From: an uncultured beta proteobacterium
Lineage (GTDB): Bacteria; Pseudomonadota; Gammaproteobacteria; Burkholderiales; Casimicrobiaceae
DNA length: 64,000 bases
Direction of reading: 5' to 3'
NCBI GenBank assembly: GCA_963786625.1
Contig: CAWAZS010000002.1
Span: 12,201 to 76,200 of the forward strand
Shown here: one piece after another, positions 7,203-59,313 of the stretch
Layout: each line of letters begins with the position of its first letter
Position numbering within the stretch: the stretch's first letter is position 1
Notes under the pieces: generated by a model
Told to the model about the DNA's origin: nothing
What the model saw: the letters and a program-made list of their open reading frames with translations, nothing else
The model's database searches: none
Made by a program: the position numbers and the translations under genes

Positions 7203-8558
7203 TCAGGCGGCGGTGGCGGCCGCGATCGCGTCGGCGAGCACCTGCGCCTGCTTGTCGGCAACGTTCGCCTCGCGCGCCTCGACCATCACGCGCAGCACGG
7301 GCTCCGTGCCCGAGGGCCGCAGCAGGACGCGCCCGGTATCGCCCAGCGCGGCGACGGTTCCGGCCTGCGCCGCGCGGATCGCCTCGCTCGCCTTCCAGTC
7401 GTAGCCCTTCGGCACGCGCACGTTGATCAGACGCTGCGGGAACAGCGTGATGCCGGCCGTGGCCTCGGCGAGCGTCTTGCGCTGCTCGACGAGCGAGCGC
7501 AGCACCGCGAGCGCGGCGATGATCGCATCGCCGGTCGTGTGCTTGTCCAGGCACAGCAGGTGGCCGGAGTTCTCGCCGCCCAGGAGCCAGCCCTTCTCGT
7601 TCAGCCTCTCCAGCACGTAGCGGTCGCCGACCGCCGCGCGCTCGAGCACGATGCCCTCGCGCGCCAGCGCCTGCTCGAGGCCGAGGTTCGTCATCGCCGT
7701 GCCGACGACGCCGCCGACGAGCGCGCCGCGCCGCCGGTAGTCCATCGCGATCACGTAGAGGAGCTGGTCGCCGTCGTACGCGCGGCCGTCGCGGTCGACC
7801 ATCAGCAGCCGGTCGCCGTCGCCGTCGAGCGCGATGCCGATATCGGCCTTGTGCGCGACCACCGCCGCCTTCAGGTGCTTCGCGTGCGTCGCGCCCACGC
7901 CGTCGTTGATGTTCATCCCGTTCGGCTCGGCGCCGATCGCGATCACGTCGGCGCCCAGCTCGTGGAACACGGGCGGCGCGACGTGGTACCCCGCGCCGTG
8001 CGCGCAGTCGATGACGATGCGCCAGCCCTTGAGATCGAGCTCGGTCGGGAACGTGCTCTTGCAGAACTCGATGTAGCGGCCGCCGGCGTCCTCGATCCGG
8101 CGCGCCTTGCCGAGCTGCGCCGACGGCACGCAGGAGAGCGGCTGCGCCATCACGCTCTCGATCGACTGCTCGATGCTGTCCGGAAGCTTCGTGCCGTCGC
8201 CGGCAAAGAACTTGATGCCGTTGTCGTCGTAGGGATTGTGCGACGCGCTGATCACGATGCCCGCGGACAGGCGCAGCGCGCGGGTCAGGTAGGCGACCGC
8301 GGGCGTGGGCAGCGGCCCGGAAAGATAGACGTCGACGCCGGCGGCGGACAGGCCCGCCTCCAGCGCGGCCTCGAGCAGGTAGCCGGAGATCCGCGTGTCC
8401 TTGCCGATCAGCACGCCCGGGCGCACGCCGTCGCGCGCGGTGTCGGCCGCGAGCACGAGGCCCGCCGCCCAGCCCAGCTTCAGCACGAGCTCGGGAGTGA
8501 TCGGCGGCTCGCCGACGCGGCCGCGGACGCCGTCGGTGCCGAAGTAATGTCGAGTCAT
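7203..8558 (-). CDS. glmM: Phosphoglucosamine mutase
   Basis: Intact 451-aa ORF: [16 protein letters not shown]..., [16 protein letters not shown] (active-site Ser loop), ALDGDGDRL. It sits in the classic folP-glmM position. Confidence 0.95.
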
Positions 8559-50919: not shown

Positions 50920-50950
50920 CCCGATCGGCCGATGCCAAGTCTCCGGCCGG

Positions 50951-51821
50951 TCAGGCCCGCGCGAGCGCCACGCCTACGCTGATCAGTGCCATTCCCGCAA
51001 TCGCGAGCGCATCGAGCGTCTCGCCGAAGATCAGCCACGCCATCACGGCGGTCACTGCGGGAACGAGAAAGAAAAGCCTGGCGACATTCGCGGCGGCGCC
51101 GTGACGCAGCAGCCAGTAGAGGAGGCTGATCGCCCCGACCGACAGCACGACGACCGACCAGCCCAGCGCGAAGGCAAACTCCGGCGTCCAGCGCACCGGC
51201 ACGTGCTCGAACGCGAGCGCGAGCGGCAGGTAGGCGCCCGCGCACGCGGCGAACTGGATCACGGCTCCCGTGCGCAGGTCGACGTGCGAGCAGAATCGCT
51301 TCTGGTAGAGCGTGCCCACGCTGATGCCGCCGAGCGCGACCGCGGTGGCCACGAGCGCGGTGACATCGCCGGTCAGTCCGAGCTTGTGCCTGACGACCAG
51401 CCAGACTCCGGCCAGCCCCAGCAGCAGCCCCAGCCATTGCCGCGGCACGACGCGCTCGCCGAGCCACCCGCGTGCGATGGCAACCGTGACGATGGGCTGG
51501 AGCCCCACCAGCATCGCAGCCGTGCCGGCGGGCATGTCGGCGGCGAGCGCGACGAACACGCCGCCGAGATAAACGCCGTGGACCAGCCACGCCGCGACCG
51601 CGACGTGCCCGACCTGCGCGAACGTGCCCGGCCACGGAGCACGGGTCGCCAATGCGACCAGCGGTCATCAGCGCGGCGACCAGCGCGAAGCGATACAGGA
51701 GAAAGGTCAGCGGGGGCGCGTACGGGAGCCCGTACTTCGCCGCGATGAAGCCGGTGCTCCACAGCAGCACGAACAGCAGCGGGAACGCGGATTGCCTTCG
51801 CGCGTGGGCGGCGTCGCTCAT
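50951..51821 (-). pseudogene. EamA/DMT-family transporter, one +1 frame change near 51660
   Basis: The N-terminus [52 protein letters not shown] is in ORF 50736..51821. The remainder (...AWLVHGVYLGGVFVALAADMPAGTAAMLVGLQPI...LFFLVPAVTAVMAWLIFGE...) is in ORF 50951..51652. Confidence 0.8.
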
Positions 51822-51942
51822 GGGAATCGGGTGCCGCGCACATACCCGGCCATGCCGGACACGCGGCGGTCAGGCCCGACCGACTGCCCGCGCGCCTGCC
51901 ACCGCGACAGCTCCTGCCGGCAACGGCGGTGCAATGCGGCGT

Positions 51943-52493
51943 TCAGAAGTTCGGCTTCGGACTCGCCGCGTCGTAGCGCGCGATGCCTTCCAGAATCTCC
52001 CGTTTCGCTTCCTCGGCGCCGACCCAGGCGGACACGCGCACCCATTTTCCGGGCTCGAGATCCTTGTAGTGCTCGAAGAAGTGCGCGATCTGCTGCGTCG
52101 TCATCTCGGGCAGGTCGCGCGGCGACTGCACGTTGCGATAGAGCGCCGGTCAGCTTGTCGATCGGCACCGCGAGCACCTTCGAATCGCCTCCCGCCTCGT
52201 CGTCCATCTTCAGCATGCCGATCGGCCGGCAGCGCACGACCACGCCCGTGATGAGCGGCATCGGCGAGAGGACCAGCACGTCGCACGGATCACCGTCGTG
52301 AGAGAGCGTGCGCGGAATGTAGCCGTAGTTGCACGGGTAGTGCATCGACGACGACATGAACCGGTCGACGAACACCGCGCCGGTTTCCTTGTCGACCTCG
52401 TATTTGATCGGATCCCCGCAGCATCGGGATTTCGATGATGACGTTGCAGTCGTTCGGGACATCCTTGCCGGCGGGCACGCGGTCGAGGTTCAT
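51943..52493 (-). pseudogene. ppa: Inorganic pyrophosphatase (family I), two +1 frame changes near 52425 and 52147
   Basis: [23 protein letters not shown] is in ORF 52290..52493. [50 protein letters not shown]...[21 protein letters not shown] is in ORF 51818..52462. [37 protein letters not shown]... is in ORF 51943..52131. Confidence 0.9.
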
Positions 52494-52570
52494 TGGCGGG
52501 AGGGCTCGTGTCGATGACGGACGGTGATTATACGGACCCCGGTGCGCGCGGCTGTATCATCGGCATCACG

Positions 52571-53388
52571 ATGGAACGTGGCCCCGGCCGGACCGATCGC
52601 GCGCGACCGAGCGGATCGCGATCCTCTCGTTGCCGCGCCGCTTGCCTGCTCGCGCCGCTCCTCGCGCTTGGCGCGGCCCTCGCGCCAGCGTCCGTCGCCG
52701 GCGCAGCCGGGCTTCGAGGCCGCGCCCCTGCCCGCGCCCTTCTCCGCCGGCAAGCCCGGCGCGGGATTGCCGCGGGGCTGGGAGCCCGTGAAGCTTTCCG
52801 CGAACAAGACGCCGACCGACTACGCGCTGGTCGAGGACGGCGACGCGGTCGTGCTGCATGCGAAGGCGATCGCCGCCGCCAGCGGGCTCGCCCAGTTCAC
52901 GGTCTTCGACGTTCGCAGCGCGCCCGTCGTCGAGTGGCGGTGGAAGGCCAGCTCGCTCGTCGACGGCGCCGACAACCGGGTCGCGGCGAAGGAGGACGCG
53001 CCGGCGCGGCTCCTGTTCGCGTTCGACGGCGACAAGTCGCAGCTGCCGCTGGTCGAGCGGGCCGTCTTCTACATCACCGAGAAGCTGTCCGGCCGCGAGT
53101 TGCCGTATGCGCTGCTGCAGTACGTATGGGCCCGCCGGCTGCCCGTGGGCACGGTGATCGAGCACCCGTACACGCGCCGCGTGCGGATGATCGTCGTGGC
53201 GAGCGGCGCCGGCGGCGTCGGGCAAGTGGCAGCGCTTCTCGCGCAACGTCTACGACGACTACCGGCAGGCGTTCGACGAGGAGCCGGGCGATCTCACCGG
53301 CATCGGGGTGATGACCGACACCGACAACACCAGCGGTTCCGTGGAAGCATGGTACGGCGACATCCGGTTCCGGCCCGCGGATCGGTAG
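52571..53388 (+). pseudogene. DUF3047-domain secreted protein, two +1 frame changes near 52690 and 53221
   Basis: The signal peptide is in frame 2 (MERGPGR...CLLAPLLALGAALAPASVAGA). The core is in ORF 52524..54164 (WEPVKLSANKTPTDYALVEDGDAVVLHAKA...EWRWKASSLVDGADNRVAAKEDAPARLLFAF...). The C-terminus is in the third frame (GKWQRFSRNVYDDYRQAFDEEPGDLTGIGVMTDTDNTSGSVEAWYGDIRFRPADR, TAG 53386-53388). Confidence 0.65.
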
Positions 53389-53432
53389 GGAACCGCCGCA
53401 CGCATCCCGCGCCGAGGTTTCCCCGGCGTCCG

Positions 53433-54507
53433 TCAGTCCCCCGAACGCGCCCCGCTGCGGTACGCCGCTCCGTAGCGAACATAGATTTCCGCCGCCTGCG
53501 CGAACAGCTCGCGCTCCTGGGGCTTCACCTCGCGGAACGCGCATGCGGGGCGGCCCGCCCAGATCCACCCCTTCGCGACCACGGTGCCGGGCTCGACCAG
53601 GGCGCGCGCGCCGATGCAGCCGCCCTCCTCGACGATGACGCCGTCGCCGACCTGCGATCCCATCCCGATCAATGCGTGGTCCCCGACGATCGCCGCGCCC
53701 ATGCGCACGTTGTGACCGACCGTCACGTCGGCGCCGATGACGAGCGGACCCCGCGCCGCATCGGTCACGAGCAGCGAGTTGTCCTGAATGTTGGTGCGCG
53801 GGCCGATCTCGACACGTGCGCCGCCGGCGACGACGACGCACCCGAAATAGACGCTCGCGTCGTCGGCCACCGCGACGTCGCCGACGAGCGCCGCAGTCGG
53901 CGCAATGTAGGCGCGACCCACCCGCGGGCGCGTCCGCGCCGCGCCCCGCGCGCTCGTCCCCGCCCGTCGGCAGGAGCGCTGCCGCGTCGAGCGGCGGCAG
54001 GTCGCCGGACGTCACCAGCGACGACTTGCTGCGATTCCGGATGGCGTACGCCGCGGCCGCGAGATCCTCCGCCCCGACCTCGCGGACCGGCGTCGCCGGG
54101 TTGCCTTCGTAGACCCACCCGCCGGCAAGCCGCTTGCGCGGCGGCACGAGGCTGCCCGCGGTGATCACGGCCCCGGCGCCGACGTGCGCACCGTCCATGA
54201 CGACGGCCGTGTCGCCAACGACGACCCGATCCTCGACCGTGCACGCATGGACCAGCGCAAATCGTCCGACGGTGACGTCGTTGCCGACGATCGCCGGCAG
54301 CGTGCTGTCGGCGATATGCACGGTCGCCCGCTCGCCGAAGTAGACGTTGGCGCCGATCCGCACCCAGTCGCCATCGGCGCGCAGCATCGCATGGTCGCGC
54401 AGCACCAGGCCGGGACCGGCGACGGTGCGGCCGACGATCGCCGCGGTCGGCGCACAATCCATCGGCGCGGCGACCGACGGCACGAAGTCGAGATAGCGGA
54501 TGAGCAT
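53433..54507 (-). pseudogene. Tandem gamma-carbonic-anhydrase-like / LbH (PaaY/CaiE/YrdA family) protein: two hexapeptide-repeat domains joined across a +1 frame change near 53940
   Basis: Domain 1 is the N-terminus of ORF 53074..54507 (MLIRYLDFVPSV...IGANVYFGERATVHIADS...VGNDVTVGRFALVHACTVED...). It has no in-frame stop. Domain 2 is ORF 53433..53921 ((V)GRAYIAPTAALVGDVAV...IGPRTNIQDNSLLV...IGADVTVGHNVRMGAAIVGD...). It has a GTG start, no SD, and an open frame extending upstream through TRPRVG. It is either a single roughly 355-aa protein or two genes. Confidence 0.7.
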
Positions 54508-54518
54508 CCTGTTGTGAT

Positions 54519-54576
54519 GGGGTCAGTGTAAGTTATCCGGCGATGCCGTTGTAGACGGATAACTTGCACTGACCCC
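54519..54576. repeat. 21-bp inverted repeat (one mismatch) with 16-nt spacer between the mutase stop and the LbH gene start
   Basis: GGGGTCAGTGTAAGTTATCCG-gcgatgccgttgtaga-CGGATAACTTGCACTGACCCC. It starts 1 nt after the mutase stop codon and ends 11 nt before the LbH ATG. It is noticeably less GC-rich than its surroundings. Confidence 0.85.
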
Positions 54577-54577
54577 G

Positions 54578-57256
54578 TTAGAAGACGGGCCTCTCGCGGT
54601 ACGTACCCCACAGTTCCCTCAGGCGTTCGACGATGTCGCCCATCGATGCACCGGCCGCGACCAGCTCGATCGTCACCGGCAGGATATTCTCGCGCTCGTC
54701 CGCGGCCACGGCAGCGAGCCGGTCGAGCAGCGCACGCACTTTCGCGTCGTCGCGCTCGCGGCGCACGCGGTGCAGACGCGCAATCTGCCGTTCCGCGGTG
54801 GTCGGATCGTAGGGGTGGATCTCGACGTCGAGCTGTTCGTCCGGCTCGACGTACCGGTTGACGCCGATCACCGGCTTCTCGCCGCTCGCCTTCCGCTTGG
54901 CAGTCTCGTAGGCGAAGTCCGCTATCCGCTGCTGGAACCAGCCGTCCTCGATCAGCTTGACGGTTCCGCCGCGGCGCTCGACCTCGTCCATTATCCGGAA
55001 GATGTCGCGCTCGAAGCGGGTCGTGAGGCTCTCGACGAGATACGAGCCGCCGAGCGGATCGGCGACGCCGGCGACACCGCTTTCGTCGGCGATGATCTGC
55101 TGCGTGCGCAGCGCGATCTTCATCGCCTCCTCGGTCGGAATCGCAAACGCCTCGTCCATTCCGTTCGTGTGCAGGCTCTGCGCGCCGCCCAGAACCGCGG
55201 CGAGCGCCTGGAGCCCCGTGCGCACGATGTTGATCTTCGGCTGCGGCTTGGTGAGCGACGCCGCCGCGGTCTGGCAGTGGAAGCGCAGCCGCATCGACTC
55301 GGGGTTCTTCGCACCGAAGCGCTCGCGCATGATCTTCGCGTAGACGCGCCGCACCGCGCGGAACTTCGCGATCTCCTCGAAGAAGTCGGCCTGGCAGACG
55401 TAGTAGAACGCGAGCCGCGGCGCGAACTCGTCGACCTGCATCCCCGTCTTCGTCACCTCGTCGACGTAGGTGACGAGGTTGCACATCGTGAACGCGGCCT
55501 CGTCCAGCGGCGATGCGCCCGCCTCGGAGATGTGATAGCCCGAGATGTTGATCGGGTTGTACCGCTTCATGTTCCGCGCGCAGTAGGTGATGCAGTCGCG
55601 GACGATGCGCACCGACGGGGCGATCGGAAAGATCCACTCCTTCTGCGCCTGGTACTCCTTCAGGATGTCCGCCTGGATCGTGCCCGAGAGCCGGTCGAGG
55701 TCGTAGCCGCGCTTGCGCGCCAGCGCGACGTACATCGCGAGCAGGATCCATGCGGTGGGATTGATCGTCATCGACACCGAGATGCGCTCGAGGTCGATGC
55801 CGTCGAACAGATGCTCGACGTCGGCGAGGGTGTCGATCGCCACGCCTTCGCGACCCACTTCGCCTTCGCAGAGCGGGTGGTCGCTGTCGTAGCCCATCAG
55901 CGTCGGCATGTCGAAGTCGGTCGACAGCCCCGTCTGGCCCTGGGCGATCAGGTACTTGAAGCGCCCGTTGGTGTCCTCGGCGGTGCCGAAGCCCGCGATC
56001 TGCCGCATCGTCCACAGCCGCCCGCGATACATCGTCGGGTAAGGACCGCGGGTGTACGGATACTGGCCGGGCAGGCCGATGTCCGAGTACGGCGTGTCGC
56101 CGACATCGAGCGGCGTGTAGACGCGCTTCAGCGGCAGACCGCCCAGCGTGCGGAATTCCGGCAGCCGCTCCGGCTGGCGCGCAAGGAAGGATGCGACCTC
56201 GTTGCGCTCCCAGGCCTCGAGTTGCGCCGCGAGCGCGGCCCGGGCCGCGTCCCCTGCGGCGTGGTCGTCGCTTCCGCGGTCGCTCATGCGTCCTCCCTTC
56301 GGTATGCCGGCGAGCAGGCGCTTCGCCGCCGCGTGCGGACCGATCGCGCGCGCATCGACCTCGGCGAGCAGGCGGGCGACGCGGCCGTCGCGCTGCTGCG
56401 ACAGCACGTCGCGCAGAATCTCTTCGCCGGCCATGAGGAGCCGGCGCTGGTTGATGGCGGTGCGCCGCGCGCTCATGGCGTCGCCGGCGTCGAGCGCATT
56501 GCGGTGGGCATCGATCGCCGCGCGCAGCTCGGCGACGCCCGCGCCGGAAAGCGCGCAGGTCGGCACGACCGGCACCAGCCAATCGCCGCTGCGCGCCGAC
56601 GCCGGTCCCATCGCCAGCATGGACTTGAGGTCGGTGATCGTCTTGTCGGCGTCGGGTCGGTCGGACTTCCCCACGACATGGATGTCGGCGATCTCGAGAA
56701 TCCCGGCCTTGATCGCCTGGATGTCGTCGCCGAGCCCCGGCGCGGAGACGACCACCGTCGTGTGCGCGGCGCGCACGATCTCGACCTCGTCCTGCCCCAC
56801 GCCGACCGTCTCGATGACGACGACGTCGTAGCCCGCCGCATCGAGAATGTCCACGGCGTCCAGCGTGCCGCGCGCGAGTCCGCCGAGCGCGCCGCGGGTG
56901 GCCATGCTCCGGACGTAGACGCCGGGGTCGCCGGCCACATCGCCCATACGGATGCGGTCGCCGAGAATCGCGCCGCCGGAAAACGGGGACGAAGGGTCGA
57001 TCGCGACGATGCCGATGCGGCGCTCGGTGCGCCGGATCTCCGCAGCGAGCCTTGCGACCAGCGTCGACTTGCCGCTGCCCGGCACGCCCGTGATCCCGAC
57101 GACGTGCGCGCGGCCCGCGTGCCGGAAGATCGCCTCCAGCGCCGGCCGGCACTCCTCGTCGCCGGCCTCGGCGCGGGAGAGCAGCCGCGCGATCGCGCGA
57201 ATCTCGCCGGCCAGCACGCCGGGAACGAGCTCGAGCGAGGGCACTGACGGCTTCAC
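54578..57256 (-). CDS. MeaB/ArgK-type G-protein chaperone fused in frame to an acyl-CoA mutase large (substrate-binding) subunit; HcmA-like signature
   Basis: 892-aa ORF. Residues 1-323 form a complete MeaB (GITGVPGSGKSTLV, DPSSPFSGGAILGDRIRM, VIETVGVGQ, GKSD). Residues 324-892 form a complete mutase TIM-barrel subunit (YPYTRGPYPTMYRGRLWTMRQIAGFGTAEDTN...GQTGLSTDFDMPTLMGYDSDHP...) with no B12 domain. The GTG start overlaps the ligase stop (GTGA). Confidence 0.88.
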   Translation of the reverse strand: MKPSVPSLELVPGVLAGEIRAIARLLSRAEAGDEECRPALEAIFRHAGRAHVVGITGVPGSGKSTLVARLAAEIRRTERRIGIVAIDPSSPFSGGAILGDRIRMGDVAGDPGVYVRSMATRGALGGLARGTLDAVDILDAAGYDVVVIETVGVGQDEVEIVRAAHTTVVVSAPGLGDDIQAIKAGILEIADIHVVGKSDRPDADKTITDLKSMLAMGPASARSGDWLVPVVPTCALSGAGVAELRAAIDAHRNALDAGDAMSARRTAINQRRLLMAGEEILRDVLSQQRDGRVARLLAEVDARAIGPHAAAKRLLAGIPKGGRMSDRGSDDHAAGDAARAALAAQLEAWERNEVASFLARQPERLPEFRTLGGLPLKRVYTPLDVGDTPYSDIGLPGQYPYTRGPYPTMYRGRLWTMRQIAGFGTAEDTNGRFKYLIAQGQTGLSTDFDMPTLMGYDSDHPLCEGEVGREGVAIDTLADVEHLFDGIDLERISVSMTINPTAWILLAMYVALARKRGYDLDRLSGTIQADILKEYQAQKEWIFPIAPSVRIVRDCITYCARNMKRYNPINISGYHISEAGASPLDEAAFTMCNLVTYVDEVTKTGMQVDEFAPRLAFYYVCQADFFEEIAKFRAVRRVYAKIMRERFGAKNPESMRLRFHCQTAAASLTKPQPKINIVRTGLQALAAVLGGAQSLHTNGMDEAFAIPTEEAMKIALRTQQIIADESGVAGVADPLGGSYLVESLTTRFERDIFRIMDEVERRGGTVKLIEDGWFQQRIADFAYETAKRKASGEKPVIGVNRYVEPDEQLDVEIHPYDPTTAERQIARLHRVRRERDDAKVRALLDRLAAVAADERENILPVTIELVAAGASMGDIVERLRELWGTYRERPVF
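56285..56299 (-). promoter_or_regulatory. Internal Shine-Dalgarno plus ATG at the MeaB/mutase junction
   Basis: The minus strand reads ccgAAGGGAGGAcgcATGagc. The ATG (56285-56287) is codon 324 of the fused ORF and the first residue of the mutase-like part. A TGA overlaps it in the +1 frame (ATGA). Confidence 0.6.
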
Positions 57257-58683
57257 GCGCCGTCCGCGAGCCGCGCGTTCAGTTCGCGGAACACTTCGCG
57301 GTCGTCGATGACCCGCCGCGCCTTGAAATCGGTCCGCGGGAACGTTCCGGGAGCGACGACTTCGACCCTGGCTCGCAACCCCAGCGTGCGCAGGAGCTTC
57401 CGGGCCGCCTCGTCCGCGAGGGCGCGCACCGCGGAGGGCCCCGCCGCGTGGACGGCCGGCGCCGCCTCCATGCGGACCAGCAACTCGTCCATCGCGCCGT
57501 CACGCGTGATGACGATCCGGTGCTCGCCGCCGTAGCCGGACAGCTCGTTGACTGCGGCATCGACCTCGCTCGGATAGACGTTCTCGCCGCGGATCGTGAA
57601 CATGTCGTCGATGCGGCCGAAGATGCCCTTCGGCAGCCGGGGGTACGTGCGCCCGCAGGGCGCGGGGCCGTCCTCCCATTGCGTGAGATCTCCCGAAACG
57701 AGCCGGATCATCGGCTGCGACGTGCGCTCGAGGTGCGTGTACACGGGCGTGCCGCGGCTCCCGAACGGCACGCGCCGGTAGGTCGCGGGATCGCAGACCT
57801 CGGTGTACACGACGTCCTGCCACAGCAGCATGCCGTCGGTCTCGGCGGTCCCGGCGAGGTTCATGAACGGCGTCATCTCCGCCATCGATCCGCAGTCGAT
57901 CACGCGCGCGCCGAACGCAGCGACGATCTTGTCGCGCACACCGGGCACCGAGGCGCCGGGCTCGCCGGAGAAGAACATCGTCTTCAGGCCGAAGGCCCGT
58001 GGATCGAAACCTTCGGCGCGCGCGACTTCCGCCAGATGCAGCGCGAACGACGGCGTCGAGTAGAACGCCGACGGCTTCATCAGGTCGAGCCACATCGCCG
58101 CGCGCGCGGTCATTCCCGGCGCGCCGGCCCCGAACGGAAACGCCTTGGCGCGCAGGCGCTCGACACCGGCGAGCGTGCCCCACGAGCCCATGTAGAGGCT
58201 GAAGATCGCCGCGATGAACACGGTGTCGCCCGGCCGCAGGCCCATGCCCCAGAGAATTCGCGCGTGCGCATTGGCGATCGCGTCCCAGTCGCCGCGGCCA
58301 ACCGCGAAGACCGTGGGCCGGCCCGTCGTGCCGGACGTGCCGTGTATGTGGTGGACCTCGCCGCCGGGAACGCAAAGGTAATCGCCGAACGGCGGCACCC
58401 GTGCCTGCGCCTCGCGCAAGTCACGCTTGGTGATGACCGGAACCTTCGCCTCGAAATCCTCGAGCGTGCGCAAGTGGTCGGGATGGAATCCGGCCTCGTC
58501 CCACTTCCGGCGATAGAAGGGCGCATGGTCCCATGCATAGCGCGCGAGCACCTGCAGCCGCTCGAGAATCGCGCGCTCGCGGCTCGCCGGCGGCATCGTC
58601 TCGCGCCGCGGGTACCAGTGGCGCGACGTTGCGGGCGGCAGGTAGTCGGCGTCGAAACGCGGCGGAAAGGTCCACGATTCCAT
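57253..58683 (-). CDS. PaaK-type AMP-forming acyl-CoA ligase (phenylacetate-CoA ligase / 2-hydroxyisobutyrate-CoA ligase family)
   Basis: Intact 476 aa: ...VHHIHGTSGTTGRPTVF (AMP-binding P-loop-like motif), FFSGEPG, MFTIRGENVYPSEVD, typical of the short PaaK/F390-synthetase branch. A GGAGG SD is present. Confidence 0.85.
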   Translation of the reverse strand: MESWTFPPRFDADYLPPATSRHWYPRRETMPPASRERAILERLQVLARYAWDHAPFYRRKWDEAGFHPDHLRTLEDFEAKVPVITKRDLREAQARVPPFGDYLCVPGGEVHHIHGTSGTTGRPTVFAVGRGDWDAIANAHARILWGMGLRPGDTVFIAAIFSLYMGSWGTLAGVERLRAKAFPFGAGAPGMTARAAMWLDLMKPSAFYSTPSFALHLAEVARAEGFDPRAFGLKTMFFSGEPGASVPGVRDKIVAAFGARVIDCGSMAEMTPFMNLAGTAETDGMLLWQDVVYTEVCDPATYRRVPFGSRGTPVYTHLERTSQPMIRLVSGDLTQWEDGPAPCGRTYPRLPKGIFGRIDDMFTIRGENVYPSEVDAAVNELSGYGGEHRIVITRDGAMDELLVRMEAAPAVHAAGPSAVRALADEAARKLLRTLGLRARVEVVAPGTFPRTDFKARRVIDDREVFRELNARLADGA

Positions 58684-58696
58684 GCAGCCGCCTCCG

Positions 58697-59113
58697 TCAC
58701 CGCGGTCCGCGCTCGGCGACGACGCGGCGGACGGCGGTGACGATCGCCTCGGGGGGCGCGTCCTGCAGGATCAGCGCCTTGACGCCCAGCGCCGTCAGCG
58801 TCGACACGTCGTCGTCCGGGATCACGCCGCCGCCGACGACGAGGATATCGTCGGCACCGCGCTCGGCAAGCAGCTTCAGCACGCGCGGAAACACCGTCAT
58901 GTGCGCGCCGGAGAGGATGCTGATCCCGATCACGTCGACGTCCTCCTGGATCGCGGCGTCGACGACCTCCTGCGGCGTGCGATGCAGCCCGGTGTAGATG
59001 ACGTCCATGCCGGCGTCGCGCAGCGTCCGCGCGACGATCTTGACGCCGCGGTCGTGACCATCCAGCCCGACCTTGGCCACCAATATGCGGATGTGATCGT
59101 GTGCGGGGCTCAC
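58697..59113 (-). CDS. Cobalamin (B12)-binding small subunit of acyl-CoA mutase
   Basis: (V)SPAHDHIRILVAKVGLDGHDRGVKIVARTLRDAGMDVIYTGLHRTPQEVVDAAIQEDVDVIGISILSGAH carries DxHxxG and SxL motifs. GTG 59113 is preceded by GGAAAGGAAGGA. It is 138 aa, and ORF 58697..59302 extends upstream without similarity. Confidence 0.88.
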   Translation of the reverse strand: MSPAHDHIRILVAKVGLDGHDRGVKIVARTLRDAGMDVIYTGLHRTPQEVVDAAIQEDVDVIGISILSGAHMTVFPRVLKLLAERGADDILVVGGGVIPDDDVSTLTALGVKALILQDAPPEAIVTAVRRVVAERGPR

Positions 59114-59313
59114 GCCGTCCTTCCTTTCCGATGCCGGGGATTCCCCTCGCAGAATCCCGGGATGGCGGATCTGCCGGTTCCGATGATAGCGCCTGGACCG
59201 GCCCCCCGCGGGCCCCGGCGGGCCAGCGAATCCGGCGGTGGCCCTGCCCGTGCGAATCCGAATGACCTCGCGAAGGCGTCTAAGATGCGATTGTTCCCGC
59301 ATCCGGAGGCCCC

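What the first reader, a model, noticed from the sequence alone, without database searches (positions are those of the whole stretch)
53433..54507. Tandem gamma-carbonic-anhydrase-like (LbH) domains with complementary loss of the three metal-binding histidines
Two PaaY/CaiE/YrdA-like hexapeptide-repeat domains follow the mutase gene on the same strand. I aligned them by eye to YrdA (..NIQDGSMLH.., ..VTVGHKVMLHGC..). Domain 1 keeps ligands 1 and 3 (ERATVH, FALVHAC) but has Arg at ligand 2 (VTVGR). Domain 2 keeps only ligand 2 (VTVGHN) and has Val and Met at positions 1 and 3 (NSLLV, VRMGA). In gamma-class carbonic anhydrase (Cam), the metal is bound at a subunit interface. Two His come from one chain (His81, His122) and one from the neighbour (His117). 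The split is therefore the one expected if only a domain-1/domain-2 interface can form a complete site. Domain 2 lacks its own SD and starts at GTG. Domain 1 has no in-frame stop. The two frames differ by +1, like the other insertion errors in this window. A single roughly 355-aa two-domain protein is therefore plausible. PaaY-type LbH proteins are acyl-CoA thioesterases, which would fit a proofreading role next to a CoA ligase and mutase.
Basis: partly seen in the sequence, partly recalled or inferred. Interest (0 to 1): 0.65.

Follow-up and report, generated by a model that had tools for sequence, protein, structure and literature searches.

The report
Fused double gamma-carbonic-anhydrase-like protein, one shared site
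A single gene, broken here by a one-base assembly error, encodes two gamma-carbonic-anhydrase-like domains that each keep only half of the metal site, so one complete site can form only where the two domains meet; the gene usually closes a vitamin-B12 mutase operon for 2-hydroxyisobutyrate.

Summary
Window 53433-54507 (minus strand) is one gene for a 357-aa protein with two left-handed beta-helix (LbH) gamma-carbonic-anhydrase-like domains.

- **Frameshift.** The two-ORF appearance comes from one extra G in the run at 53926-53928. More than 120 homologue clusters are uninterrupted proteins of 342-404 aa. An independent metagenome contig about 95% identical lacks exactly that base.
- **Ligands.** Domain 1 has His64, Arg82 and His87 at the three ligand positions. 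Domain 2 has Val247, His265 and Gly270.
- **Second shell.** Domain 1 keeps Arg43 and Asp45 but has lost the Asn/Gln pair. Domain 2 keeps Asn239, Gln241, Asp242 and Tyr342 but has lost the Arg/Asp pair. This is the division of labour seen at the one metal-occupied gammaCA1/gammaCA2 interface of plant complex I.
- **Conservation.** The nine composite-site residues are at least 97% conserved in 121 close and 33 distant (25-57% identity) tandem proteins. The eight reciprocal positions drift.
- **Structure.** AlphaFold2 gives pTM 0.92, and 0.91 for a 38%-identical homologue. No solved structure contains such a tandem.
- **Context.** The gene follows hcmB, an hcl-like ligase and meaH::hcmA (78% identical to HcmA) in about 60 of 80 related loci and in a Roseovarius-type operon.

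The biochemical function (thioesterase or carbonic anhydrase) is untested.

The parts
53433..54507 (-). Whole gene for the 357-aa tandem LbH (gamma-CA-like) protein, including the stop codon TGA at 53433-53435. In this assembly the frame is broken by a 1-nt insertion.
   Evidence: Homologues of 342-404 aa cover 96-100% of the repaired protein.
53926..53928 (-). GGG run (CCC on the coding strand) that carries one extra base. This is the frameshift that splits the gene into two apparent ORFs.
   Evidence: Removing one G restores the ORF and the orthologous junction sequence. The X3 contig lacks one base at 53926, and the X1 and X2 contigs are a net 1 nt shorter across 53926-53938.
54013..54507 (-). 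Domain 1 (residues 1-165): LbH plus a short C-terminal helix. It keeps Arg43 (54379-54381), Asp45 (54373-54375), His64 as ligand 1 (54316-54318) and His87 as ligand 3 (54247-54249). Ligand 2 is Arg82 (54262-54264). The Asn/Gln equivalents are Tyr56 and Gly58.
   Evidence: AF2 pLDDT above 94.
53907..54012 (-). Inter-domain linker (residues about 166-200). It contains the conserved DLPPLD motif and a low-confidence stretch at residues 181-190. The false GTG 'start' of domain 2 (53919-53921) is Val196 of this linker.
53436..53906 (-). Domain 2 (residues 201-357): LbH plus a long C-terminal helix. It keeps Asn239 (53790-53792), Gln241 (53784-53786), Asp242 (53781-53783), His265 as ligand 2 (53712-53714) and Tyr342 (53481-53483). 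Ligand 1 is Val247 (53766-53768) and ligand 3 is Gly270 (53697-53699). The Arg/Asp equivalents are Val226 and Gly228.
   Evidence: AF2 pLDDT above 95.
54578..57256 (-). Upstream gene: a MeaB/MeaH-type G-protein chaperone fused to the 2-hydroxyisobutyryl-CoA mutase large subunit (HcmA-like), 892 aa.
   Evidence: NCBIfam MeaB (307 bits) and mutase N-terminal domain (670 bits). The mutase part matches HcmA 4R3U at about 78% identity, E 5e-289, and keeps the RQIAGF motif.
57253..58683 (-). PaaK-family acyl-CoA ligase (476 aa), presumably the 2-hydroxyisobutyrate-CoA ligase (HCL) of the operon.
   Evidence: Its best NCBIfam hit is PaaK at 257 bits, below the cut-off of 646. hcl normally sits in an operon with hcmAB and meaH (PMC7176365). 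Syntenic in about 60 of 80 loci.
58697..59122 (-). B12-binding small subunit of the mutase (HcmB-like), the first gene of the operon. The exact start codon is uncertain.
   Evidence: NCBIfam mutase C-terminal (B12-binding) domain at 148 bits, cut-off 57. It carries the GLDGHDRG motif.
54519..54576 (-). Perfect-arm hairpin in the 70-nt spacer between hcmA and the LbH gene. The arms are 21 bp with 20 of 21 complementary, and the loop is 16 nt. Its role is unknown and it may not belong to the finding.
   Evidence: RNA dG -35.9 kcal/mol, z -6.3. It occurs only once in the window.

Best explanation
**What it is.** One gene encodes a 357-aa protein made of two paralogous gamma-carbonic-anhydrase-fold (LbH) domains joined by a linker of about 40 residues. 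In this assembly the gene is split by a one-base homopolymer insertion.

**How the site is built.**
- The two domains have become complementary half-sites.
- Domain 1 supplies the face that in Cam carries His81, His122, Arg59 and Asp61. Here these are His64, His87, Arg43 and Asp45.
- Domain 2 supplies the opposite face, which carries His117, Asn73, Gln75, Asp76 and the C-terminal-helix Tyr. Here these are His265, Asn239, Gln241, Asp242 and Tyr342.
- Packed side by side like two neighbouring subunits of a gamma-CA trimer, they would form exactly one canonical three-His metal site per chain, at the intramolecular domain-1/domain-2 interface.
- The other two sites of a canonical trimer have been dismantled.

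**What is shown and what is inferred.**
- Shown: the single gene, the residue pattern, its conservation, confident two-domain models and the operon linkage.
- Inferred: the actual convergence of the three His on a metal.
- Inferred, more weakly: the chemistry. I take it to be metal-hydroxide catalysis, as in gamma-CAs and in PaaY. The most likely activity is acyl-CoA thioester hydrolysis that recycles CoA in the 2-hydroxyisobutyryl-CoA (hcl/hcmAB, with or without the lyase) pathway whose operon it closes. Within the explanation I put the thioesterase reading at roughly 0.35.
For: **Single gene.**

**Ligand mapping.** Alignment to solved gamma-CAs; the gapless D1/D2 alignment.

**Geometry in known enzymes.**
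- Cam: His81 and His122 come from one monomer and His117 from its neighbour (PMC4519908).
- Arabidopsis complex I: H130, N99, Q101, D102 and Y207 come from gammaCA1; H107, H135 and R86 come from gammaCA2 (PMC8290278).

**Conservation.**
- The nine composite-site residues are 120-121 of 121 in close homologues and 32-33 of 33 in distant tandem representatives. The eight reciprocal positions vary, for example D1 ligand 2 is R/E/A/D/P/K/S/M/T/N/G.
- In a 46-sequence alignment down to 25% identity, the invariant columns are these residues plus a few other mostly structural positions (mainly Gly, Pro and Asn).

**Structure prediction.**
- AF2 gives pLDDT 94.0 and pTM 0.92 for the window protein.
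- It gives pLDDT 91.5 and pTM 0.91 for the 38%-identical Roseovarius-type homologue.
- pTM values this high indicate a fixed relative orientation of the domains.

**Operon linkage.**
- The order B12 subunit, ligase, MeaB::mutase (sometimes a lyase), tandem LbH occurs in about 60 of 80 betaproteobacterial loci.
- The Roseovarius-type alphaproteobacterial operon also carries it. There the other operon proteins are 54-73% identical to the window's, and the LbH protein only 38%.

**Thioesterase precedent.** PaaY orthologues are Zn-dependent acyl-CoA thioesterases that use a gamma-CA active site at subunit interfaces (PMC11110157 and PMC467105).
Against: - No coordinates were available, so the His-His-His distances and the identity of the packed faces were not measured.
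- It is unknown what occupies the position of the third subunit. A two-prism assembly has no precedent among solved gamma-CAs: every Foldseek hit covers only one half of the model.
- Two of the five AF2 models of the window protein were less confident, with mean pLDDT 75 and 74.
- Function: the protein is not a PaaY or CaiE orthologue by model score.
- About 14 of 80 related genomes retain it without hcm genes, some next to mutase remnants.
- Distant tandem-family members lie beside unrelated genes such as NUDIX/PTA, XerC/D-type integrase/Hsp33 and an alkyl sulfatase. This argues for a more general role.
Confidence: 0.62

Rival explanations
1. The architecture is the same (fused, one composite site), but the protein is a genuine carbonic anhydrase that interconverts CO2 and bicarbonate. 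Its position after the hcm operon would then be incidental or serve pH or bicarbonate supply.
For: - All residues named as catalytic or structural for the gamma-CA site are present once per chain.
- The best NCBIfam hit for both halves is 'gamma carbonic anhydrase'.
- The closest solved relatives include active gamma-CAs.
- Some genomes keep the gene without hcm genes, and distant members are in housekeeping-like contexts.
- A. baumannii PaaY and TrlF show both activities.
Against: - The mutase route from 2-hydroxyisobutyryl-CoA to 3-hydroxybutyryl-CoA neither uses nor releases CO2 (established knowledge; pathway in PMC7176365).
- Tight, apparently translationally coupled placement inside the Roseovarius-type operon, between the mutase and the adenosyltransferase, is hard to explain for a general CA.
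- Scores are far below the gamma-CA equivalog cut-off: 85 and 115 bits against 250.
Confidence: 0.22
2. Each domain homotrimerises with its own kind (D1x3 stacked with or beside D2x3), as in ordinary gamma-CAs. No complete three-His site would exist. The conserved residues would serve structure or bind something other than a metal, for example an anion at a His/His/Arg site in domain 1.
For: - Homotrimers are the rule for solved gamma-CAs and for PaaY.
- Arg82 at ligand 2 of domain 1 and Gly270 at ligand 3 of domain 2 are invariant in the close family.
- The quaternary structure was not tested.
Against: - In the wider tandem family, domain-1 ligand 2 and domain-2 ligands 1 and 3 are freely variable, while the nine composite-site residues stay invariant. 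That pattern has no explanation under homotypic interfaces.
- AF2 places the two domains in a fixed mutual arrangement (pTM 0.92 and 0.91).
Confidence: 0.08
3. It is a non-catalytic or B12-related accessory factor of the mutase, acting in cofactor loading, repair or regulation and using the metal site only structurally.
For: In the Roseovarius-type operon the gene lies between the mutase and a PduO-type adenosyltransferase, among the mutase's helper genes. In the window it directly follows the MeaB::HcmA fusion.
Against: - No LbH protein is known to act on B12 enzymes (my own knowledge, not tested).
- The full catalytic second shell (Asn, Gln, Asp, Tyr) is conserved, not just the ligands.
- The gene persists without the mutase in some genomes.
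Confidence: 0.06
4. The frameshift is genuine in this organism. The gene would then be a pseudogene, two separately translated ORFs, or a case of programmed frameshifting.
For: The window sequence as given has the extra base. I could not lay reads from the source organism itself.
Against: - All 120 listed homologues, and the tblastn matches in nearly all of the 80 genome loci, are continuous.
- Near-identical contigs from three independent runs are a net 1 nt shorter here.
- Domain 2 would start inside the linker, without its N-terminal strand (the match begins at profile position 15).
- ppa and other conserved neighbouring genes are frameshifted too.
- The site is a homopolymer.
Confidence: 0.04

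Closest known systems
Heterotrimeric gammaCA/gammaCAL domain of plant and algal mitochondrial complex I (Arabidopsis gammaCA1/gammaCA2/gammaCAL2; PDB 7AQQ, 7AR7, 6X89)
   Same: - Gamma-CA-fold subunits have diverged so that only one hetero-interface keeps the full set of residues. That set is two His plus Arg from one partner, and one His plus Asn, Gln, Asp and Tyr from the other (PMC8290278).
- These chains are also the best sequence matches to domain 1.
   Different: - There the partners are separate polypeptides in a closed trimer bound to a membrane complex in eukaryotes, and each gammaCA subunit still has all three His.
- Here the two partners are fused in one bacterial cytosolic chain, each has lost the reciprocal half, and a third partner is unknown.
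PaaY (phenylacetate catabolon thioesterase) and its homologue TrlF
   Same: - LbH gamma-CA fold.
- Interfacial His3-metal site used to hydrolyse an acyl-CoA and recover CoA.
- Encoded with a PaaK-family CoA ligase pathway (PMC11110157 and PMC467105).
   Different: - PaaY is a single-domain homotrimer with three complete sites.
- The window domains score 56 and 54 bits against TIGR02287, whose cut-off is 319.6.
- The pathway here is 2-hydroxyisobutyryl-CoA mutase, not paa.
Homotrimeric CamH-type bacterial gamma-CAs and YrdA-like proteins (3TIO, 3IXC, 3R1W, 3VNP, 9JYW)
   Same: The fold of each half is the same: TM-score 0.77-0.90 relative to the target and 29-38% identity. The motif order is the same (RxD ... 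NxQD ... H ... GH....H).
   Different: Those proteins have about 170-190 aa, all three His in every chain, and three equivalent sites. No solved entry has two such domains in one chain.
hcl-hcmAB-meaH operon for 2-hydroxyisobutyrate degradation (Aquincola tertiaricarbonis type)
   Same: The upstream genes match. The mutase large subunit is 78% identical to HcmA 4R3U. There is a separate B12-binding subunit, a PaaK-family ligase and a MeaB-like chaperone.
   Different: - The chaperone is fused to HcmA here.
- Many relatives add an actinobacterial-type 2-hydroxyacyl-CoA lyase.
- The description of this operon in the one paper I read (PMC7176365) mentions no LbH gene.

Membership tests
Gamma-class carbonic anhydrase (Cam/CamH) superfamily | Left-handed beta-helix of hexapeptide repeats followed by a C-terminal helix | tested here: met
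   Pfam Hexapep in both halves. The AF2 secondary structure shows two LbH-plus-helix units. Foldseek TM-score is 0.77-0.90 relative to gamma-CA chains.
Gamma-class carbonic anhydrase (Cam/CamH) superfamily | Each LbH chain carries all three metal-binding His (Cam His81, His117, His122) | tested here: not met
   Domain 1 has H/R/H and domain 2 has V/H/G. The triad exists only once, split across the two domains.
Gamma-class carbonic anhydrase (Cam/CamH) superfamily | Second-shell residues (Arg59, Asp61, Asn73, Gln75, Asp76, C-terminal-helix Tyr/Asn) arranged across a subunit interface | tested here: met
   Present once per chain in the partition seen at the Arabidopsis gammaCA1/gammaCA2 site: R43 and D45 in domain 1; N239, Q241, D242 and Y342 in domain 2. 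The geometry itself was not measured.
Gamma-class carbonic anhydrase (Cam/CamH) superfamily | Reaches the curated score of a gamma-CA equivalog model | tested here: not met
   NF050158 gives 85.2 bits for domain 1 and 115 bits for domain 2. The cut-off is 250.
Gamma-class carbonic anhydrase (Cam/CamH) superfamily | Homotrimer with three interfacial sites; CO2 hydration activity | not testable with these tools
   No multimer prediction, no model coordinates and no assay were available.
PaaY (TIGR02287) | Score above the equivalog cut-off, and location in a paa gene cluster | tested here: not met
   56.3 and 53.6 bits against a cut-off of 319.6. The neighbours are hcm genes, not paa genes.
PaaY (TIGR02287) | Zn-dependent acyl-CoA thioesterase activity | not testable with these tools
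   This needs a biochemical assay. The only support is analogy.
CaiE (NF010150) | Score above the equivalog cut-off, and location in a cai operon | tested here: not met
   50.3 and 52 bits against a cut-off of 305. There are no cai genes nearby.
2-hydroxyisobutyryl-CoA mutase operon (hcmAB, meaH, hcl), for the neighbouring genes | Large subunit orthologous to HcmA with the substrate-site Ile (RQIAGF), a separate B12-binding subunit, a MeaB-like GTPase and a PaaK-family ligase | tested here: met
   4R3U at E 5e-289 and about 78% identity, with RQIAGF conserved. B12-binding domain at 148 bits; MeaB at 307 bits, above the cut-off of 240.75. The ligase was assigned to HCL only by family and synteny, not by direct comparison.
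Tandem gamma-CA-like family (unnamed; defined here) | About 340-370 aa, D1-linker-D2, with R..D..H..x..H in D1 and N.QD..x..H..x..Y in D2 | tested here: met
   The window protein and 120 close homologues. 32 distant representative clusters. A 46-sequence alignment.

The most novel reading that the evidence does not exclude
The tandem protein is an obligate single-site, covalently fused pseudo-heterodimer of the gamma-CA fold. It was recruited as a dedicated helper of 2-hydroxyisobutyryl-CoA metabolism. The missing third subunit leaves an open groove that binds the CoA moiety. The one composite metal-hydroxide site then hydrolyses a specific off-pathway or end-product thioester, for example formyl-CoA from the co-encoded 2-hydroxyacyl-CoA lyase or a mis-activated acyl-CoA that would block the B12 mutase. 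This would be a new quaternary solution and a new enzyme of this pathway.
Probability: 0.2. Interest if true: 0.7.

Novelty: new variant of a known kind. Interest (0 to 1): 0.55.

Why it matters
- **Evolution of the fold.** Gamma-CA-fold enzymes are textbook homotrimers with three identical interfacial sites. This is a widespread bacterial family: 248 representative clusters score E<=1e-30 against the family profile (these also include single-domain fragments and ordinary gamma-CAs), and at least 171 species-level genomes encode a relative. In it, duplication, fusion and reciprocal loss have turned the fold into a one-site asymmetric protein. That is a bacterial, single-chain counterpart of the degenerate gammaCA/gammaCAL heterotrimer of mitochondrial complex I.
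- **A testable case.** It shows how half-sites are partitioned after duplication, in a form that can be tested directly.
- **Annotation.** Current annotation ('gamma carbonic anhydrase family protein', 'acetyltransferase-like') hides the architecture.
- **Pathway.** Its recurrent place at the end of hcl-hcmAB (with or without the lyase) operons points to an unrecognised component of 2-hydroxyisobutyrate metabolism. A cultured carrier (Roseovarius sp. A-2) makes genetics feasible.
- **Assembly quality.** The case also shows that the two-ORF appearance in this window is an assembly artefact.

Tried and rejected
1. **Naturally split two-gene versions.**
   - Many 'stand-alone' D1-like and D2-like hits exist.
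   - The one I could inspect (P0209, locus L081, a 2x-coverage contig) has a D1-like stretch just upstream in another frame. It is probably another frameshift artefact.
   - P0185 was not on record. I draw no conclusion about split forms.
2. **Foldseek of the model against the PDB**, hoping for a solved tandem. Every hit covers only one half, with query-normalised TM-score about 0.4.
3. **Literature searches** for tandem or fused gamma-CAs, and for a link between hcm operons and carbonic-anhydrase-like genes. Nothing relevant turned up. One paper on acetone-degrading Desulfotomaculum lists a 'carbonic anhydrase/acetyltransferase' in a cluster that also holds a B12 mutase. I did not examine it further.
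4. **Promoter and terminator scan of 53200-54700**. There is no promoter-like site and only one weak terminator-like match inside the coding region, so the scan is uninformative.
5. **Search of the window for a third LbH partner gene.** None was found.
6. **Programmed frameshifting.** Rejected because orthologues are in frame and the shift site is not conserved.
7. **My first assignment of the domain-2 Arg59/Asp61-equivalent columns** (residues 227 and 229) was wrong by one. I corrected it to Val226 and Gly228 from the 3IXC alignment.
Full report
**1. What is in the sequence**

The feature lies on the minus strand. An ORF opens at ATG 54507 and reads a clean gamma-carbonic-anhydrase-like left-handed beta-helix (LbH) domain. 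It then runs on without a stop into an arginine-rich wrong-frame tail as far as 53074. A second LbH domain sits in another frame, from the GTG at 53921 to the stop codon TGA at 53433-53435. Both halves match Pfam Hexapep. Their best NCBIfam models are gamma carbonic anhydrase (85 and 115 bits, cut-off 250), PaaY (56 and 54 bits, cut-off 319.6) and CaiE (50 and 52 bits, cut-off 305). They are therefore members of the gamma-CA-like superfamily but not orthologues of any named family. The second ORF starts only at position 15 of the gamma-CA profile, so it lacks its N-terminal strand.

**2. One gene, broken by a one-base insertion**

- I joined the two frames conceptually and searched 5.8 billion proteins. 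The search returned 769 hits. All 120 that were listed are single proteins of 342-404 aa covering 96-100% of the query at 59-95% identity.
- The closest hit, P0001 (95% identity, 357 aa), reads ...GAGAPRVGRAYIAPTA... across the junction.
- Deleting one G from the GGG run at 53926-53928 (CCC on the coding strand) gives a 357-aa ORF reading ...GADAPRVGRAYIAPTA....
- The apparent GTG start of 'domain 2' is the Val codon of that linker.
- I also checked public reads. A 2164-nt contig from a hot-spring metagenome run (X3, depth 14.7, about 95% identical) spans 53422-54508 with exactly one gap, a base missing at 53926. More divergent contigs from two wetland runs are also a net 1 nt shorter across 53926-53938.
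- The same stretch of the window has frameshifts in other conserved genes when compared with close relatives. The pyrophosphatase gene ppa is spread over three frames, and an EamA-type transporter and a DUF3047 gene each have one shift.
- The insertion is therefore best read as a homopolymer error of this assembly. It is not biology and not programmed frameshifting.

**3. The ligand pattern**

HMMER alignments to solved gamma-CAs place the residues unambiguously. Against the plant gammaCA chain 6X89_G2, domain 1 reads ...atvH(64)iadst...vtvgR(82)falvH(87)ac..., where the reference has H, H and H. Against 3IXC, domain 2 reads ...tniqdnsllV(247)td...vtvgH(265)nvrmG(270)aa.... The two domains align with each other without gaps at 32% identity and give the same correspondence.

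| Position | Domain 1 | Domain 2 |
|---|---|---|
| Ligand 1 (Cam His81) | His64 | Val247 |
| Ligand 2 (Cam His117) | Arg82 | His265 |
| Ligand 3 (Cam His122) | His87 | Gly270 |

**4. The complementarity goes beyond the histidines**

In Cam, His81 and His122 come from one monomer and His117 from its neighbour (PMC4519908). The cryo-EM paper on Arabidopsis complex I describes the one metal-occupied interface in detail. GammaCA1 gives H130 (ligand 2) plus N99, Q101, D102 and Y207. GammaCA2 gives H107 and H135 (ligands 1 and 3) plus R86 (PMC8290278).

In the window protein:
- Domain 1 keeps R43, D45, H64 and H87, but has Tyr56 and Gly58 where Asn and Gln should be.
- Domain 2 keeps N239, Q241, D242, H265 and Y342, but has Val226 and Gly228 where Arg and Asp should be.

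Every residue needed for one site between the 'ligand 1+3' face of domain 1 and the 'ligand 2' face of domain 2 is present. Every residue of the reciprocal set is gone.

**5. Conservation**

- Across 121 sequences at 59-96% identity, the nine composite-site residues are invariant apart from two single exceptions.
- A profile search of 1.84 billion representative proteins found 248 with E<=1e-30. These include about 40 full-length two-domain proteins at only 25-57% identity.
- In 33 of these tandems the same nine residues are 32-33 of 33 conserved. The eight reciprocal positions are essentially free. For example, domain-1 ligand 2 is R, E, A, D, P, K, S, M, T, N or G, and domain-2 ligand 3 is G, T, Q, E, R, S, K, D, A, F or V.
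- In a 46-sequence alignment of the whole family, the invariant columns are R, D, H and H in domain 1 and N, Q, D, H and Y in domain 2, plus a few other mostly structural positions (mainly Gly, Pro and Asn).
- A few longer proteins with a different architecture have full His triads: P0150, P0156, P0223, P0233 and P0252. They are not part of this pattern.

This distribution is what selection on one hetero-interface predicts. It is not what domain-wise homotrimers would predict.

**6. Structure prediction**

- AlphaFold2 with the 121-sequence alignment gives mean pLDDT 94.0 and pTM 0.92. It shows two LbH-plus-helix units and only residues 181-190 of the linker at low confidence.
- The 38%-identical Roseovarius-type homologue gives pLDDT 91.5 and pTM 0.91, with all five models at 87.8 or above.
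- A pTM this high for a two-domain chain implies a fixed mutual arrangement.
- Foldseek against the PDB finds only single-domain gamma-CAs. Each covers half of the model, with TM-score about 0.42 normalised to the query and 0.77-0.90 normalised to the target. No tandem of this kind has been solved.
- I could not read coordinates. The convergence of the three His is therefore inferred, not measured, and nothing can be said about what fills the third-subunit position.

**7. Genomic context**

The gene is the last of a four-gene minus-strand operon.

| Window coordinates (minus strand) | Gene | Evidence |
|---|---|---|
| 58697-59122 | B12-binding small subunit | |
| 57253-58683 | PaaK-family CoA ligase | |
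| 54578-57256 | 892-aa fusion of a MeaB-type GTPase with a mutase large subunit, about 78% identical to HcmA of Aquincola tertiaricarbonis (4R3U, E 5e-289; RQIAGF conserved) | |
| 53433-54507 | tandem LbH gene | |

The first three genes form the known hcl-hcmAB-meaH module for 2-hydroxyisobutyrate (PMC7176365). The description of that operon in the paper I read mentions no LbH gene.

A scan of one genome per species found relatives in 171 genomes. The best 80 are all metagenome-assembled, mostly Betaproteobacteria, Casimicrobiaceae and Burkholderiales, and the closest is 82% identical.
- In about 60 of the 80 loci the same operon precedes the tandem gene.
- In about 25 loci an extra gene lies between the mutase and the tandem gene. 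[quoted passage not shown]
- About 14 loci keep the tandem gene without the operon. Some carry remnants: mutase fragments in L019 and L030, only the ligase in L036, only MeaB in L008.

A distant subfamily is represented by P0140, whose 90%-identity cluster includes WP_080458337.1 of the cultured Roseovarius sp. A-2. Its context is hcmB-hcl-meaH-hcmA-(99 aa)-tandem LbH-PduO adenosyltransferase-PhaC, with overlapping or abutting coding regions. There the other operon proteins are 54-73% identical to the window's, and the LbH protein only 38%, yet the nine residues are intact.

Other distant tandem proteins lie in unrelated contexts: NUDIX/PTA, XerC/D-type integrase/Hsp33, and an alkyl sulfatase.

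The link to the hcm operon is therefore recurrent across two proteobacterial classes. It is neither universal for the family nor obligatory.

**8. How it most likely works**

Shown:
- a single fused gene;
- reciprocal half-site retention;
- its deep conservation;
- confident two-domain packing;
- operon linkage.

Inferred:
- The two domains pack like neighbouring subunits of a gamma-CA trimer. They build one His3 metal site with a full second shell, and the other potential sites are dead.
- The chemistry available to such a site is metal-hydroxide attack. In gamma-CAs the target is CO2. In PaaY and TrlF the same site hydrolyses an acyl-CoA to recover CoA, and some orthologues do both (PMC11110157 and PMC467105).

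Given the ligase, mutase and lyase neighbours, I favour an acyl-CoA thioesterase role. Candidates are CoA recovery from dead-end or mis-activated thioesters, or hydrolysis of formyl-CoA where the lyase is present. The 2020 lyase paper noted that no specific formyl-CoA hydrolase had been identified. This remains an analogy. A plain carbonic anhydrase and a mutase-accessory role are live rivals.

**9. Novelty and verdict**

- The fold, the ligands and the idea of a degenerate hetero-interface are all known from complex I.
- What I could not find in the PDB, in the family libraries or in the searchable literature is a fused two-domain gamma-CA-like protein with reciprocally degenerate half-sites, or its association with hcm operons. 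Sources name it only generically.
- I rate it a new variant of a known kind and of moderate interest.
Its structural interpretation is well supported and extended. Its functional suggestion is untested.

Noticed in passing
window 54519-54576: A 21-bp inverted repeat (20 of 21 complementary, 16-nt loop) fills the 70-nt spacer between the hcmA stop and the LbH start. RNA dG is -35.9 kcal/mol with z -6.3. It occurs once in the window and is AT-richer than the 69.5% GC genome. In the closest related locus (L001) the tblastn matches to the mutase and the LbH protein lie only about 33 nt apart, so that locus probably has no room for the repeat. It could be an intercistronic mRNA stem-loop, an operator or a small inserted element.
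   Followed up: partly
window 50950-53400 (ppa 51946-52553 minus strand; EamA-type gene near 51660; DUF3047 gene on the plus strand near 53203-53237): Several conserved genes next to the finding are split over two or three reading frames when compared with close relatives. The inorganic pyrophosphatase gene is among them. This points to indel errors in the assembly.
   Followed up: partly
window 54578-57256 (minus strand): The MeaB/MeaH-type G-protein chaperone is fused to the N-terminus of the HcmA-like mutase large subunit (892 aa), while the B12-binding subunit stays separate. This domain order differs from IcmF. In the Roseovarius-type operon (L083) the chaperone is a separate gene.
   Followed up: partly
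L012 6156-7916, and the equivalent position in about 25 of the 80 related loci: An orthologue of the actinobacterial TPP-dependent 2-hydroxyacyl-CoA (2-hydroxyisobutyryl-CoA) lyase sits between hcmA and the tandem LbH gene. These betaproteobacteria therefore encode both the mutase route and the lyase route in one operon. The window itself lacks this gene.
   Followed up: partly
L083 1203-9326 and L092 (Roseovarius sp. A-2, GCA_002072155.1): An alphaproteobacterial version of the operon reads hcmB-hcl-meaH-hcmA, a 99-aa protein with no Pfam match, the tandem LbH gene, a PduO-type adenosyltransferase and PhaC. Adjacent coding regions overlap or abut. This organism is a cultured carrier suitable for genetics.
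   Followed up: partly
L019, L030, L036, L008 (upstream of position 8001 in each): Some related genomes keep the tandem LbH gene next to remnants of the hcm operon: about 110-nt mutase fragments, only the ligase, or only MeaB. This suggests decay of the operon with retention of the LbH gene.
   Followed up: no
window residue Asp105 of domain 1 (VVMDGAHV); equivalent Asp288 in domain 2: The Asp of the (M/L)DG motif is invariant in domain 1 across the whole tandem family but not in domain 2. From my own recollection of their sequences, ordinary gamma-CAs and PaaY conserve this motif too. PaaY is reported to bind a central Ca2+ (PMC11110157), but I did not check whether this Asp is involved.
   Followed up: no
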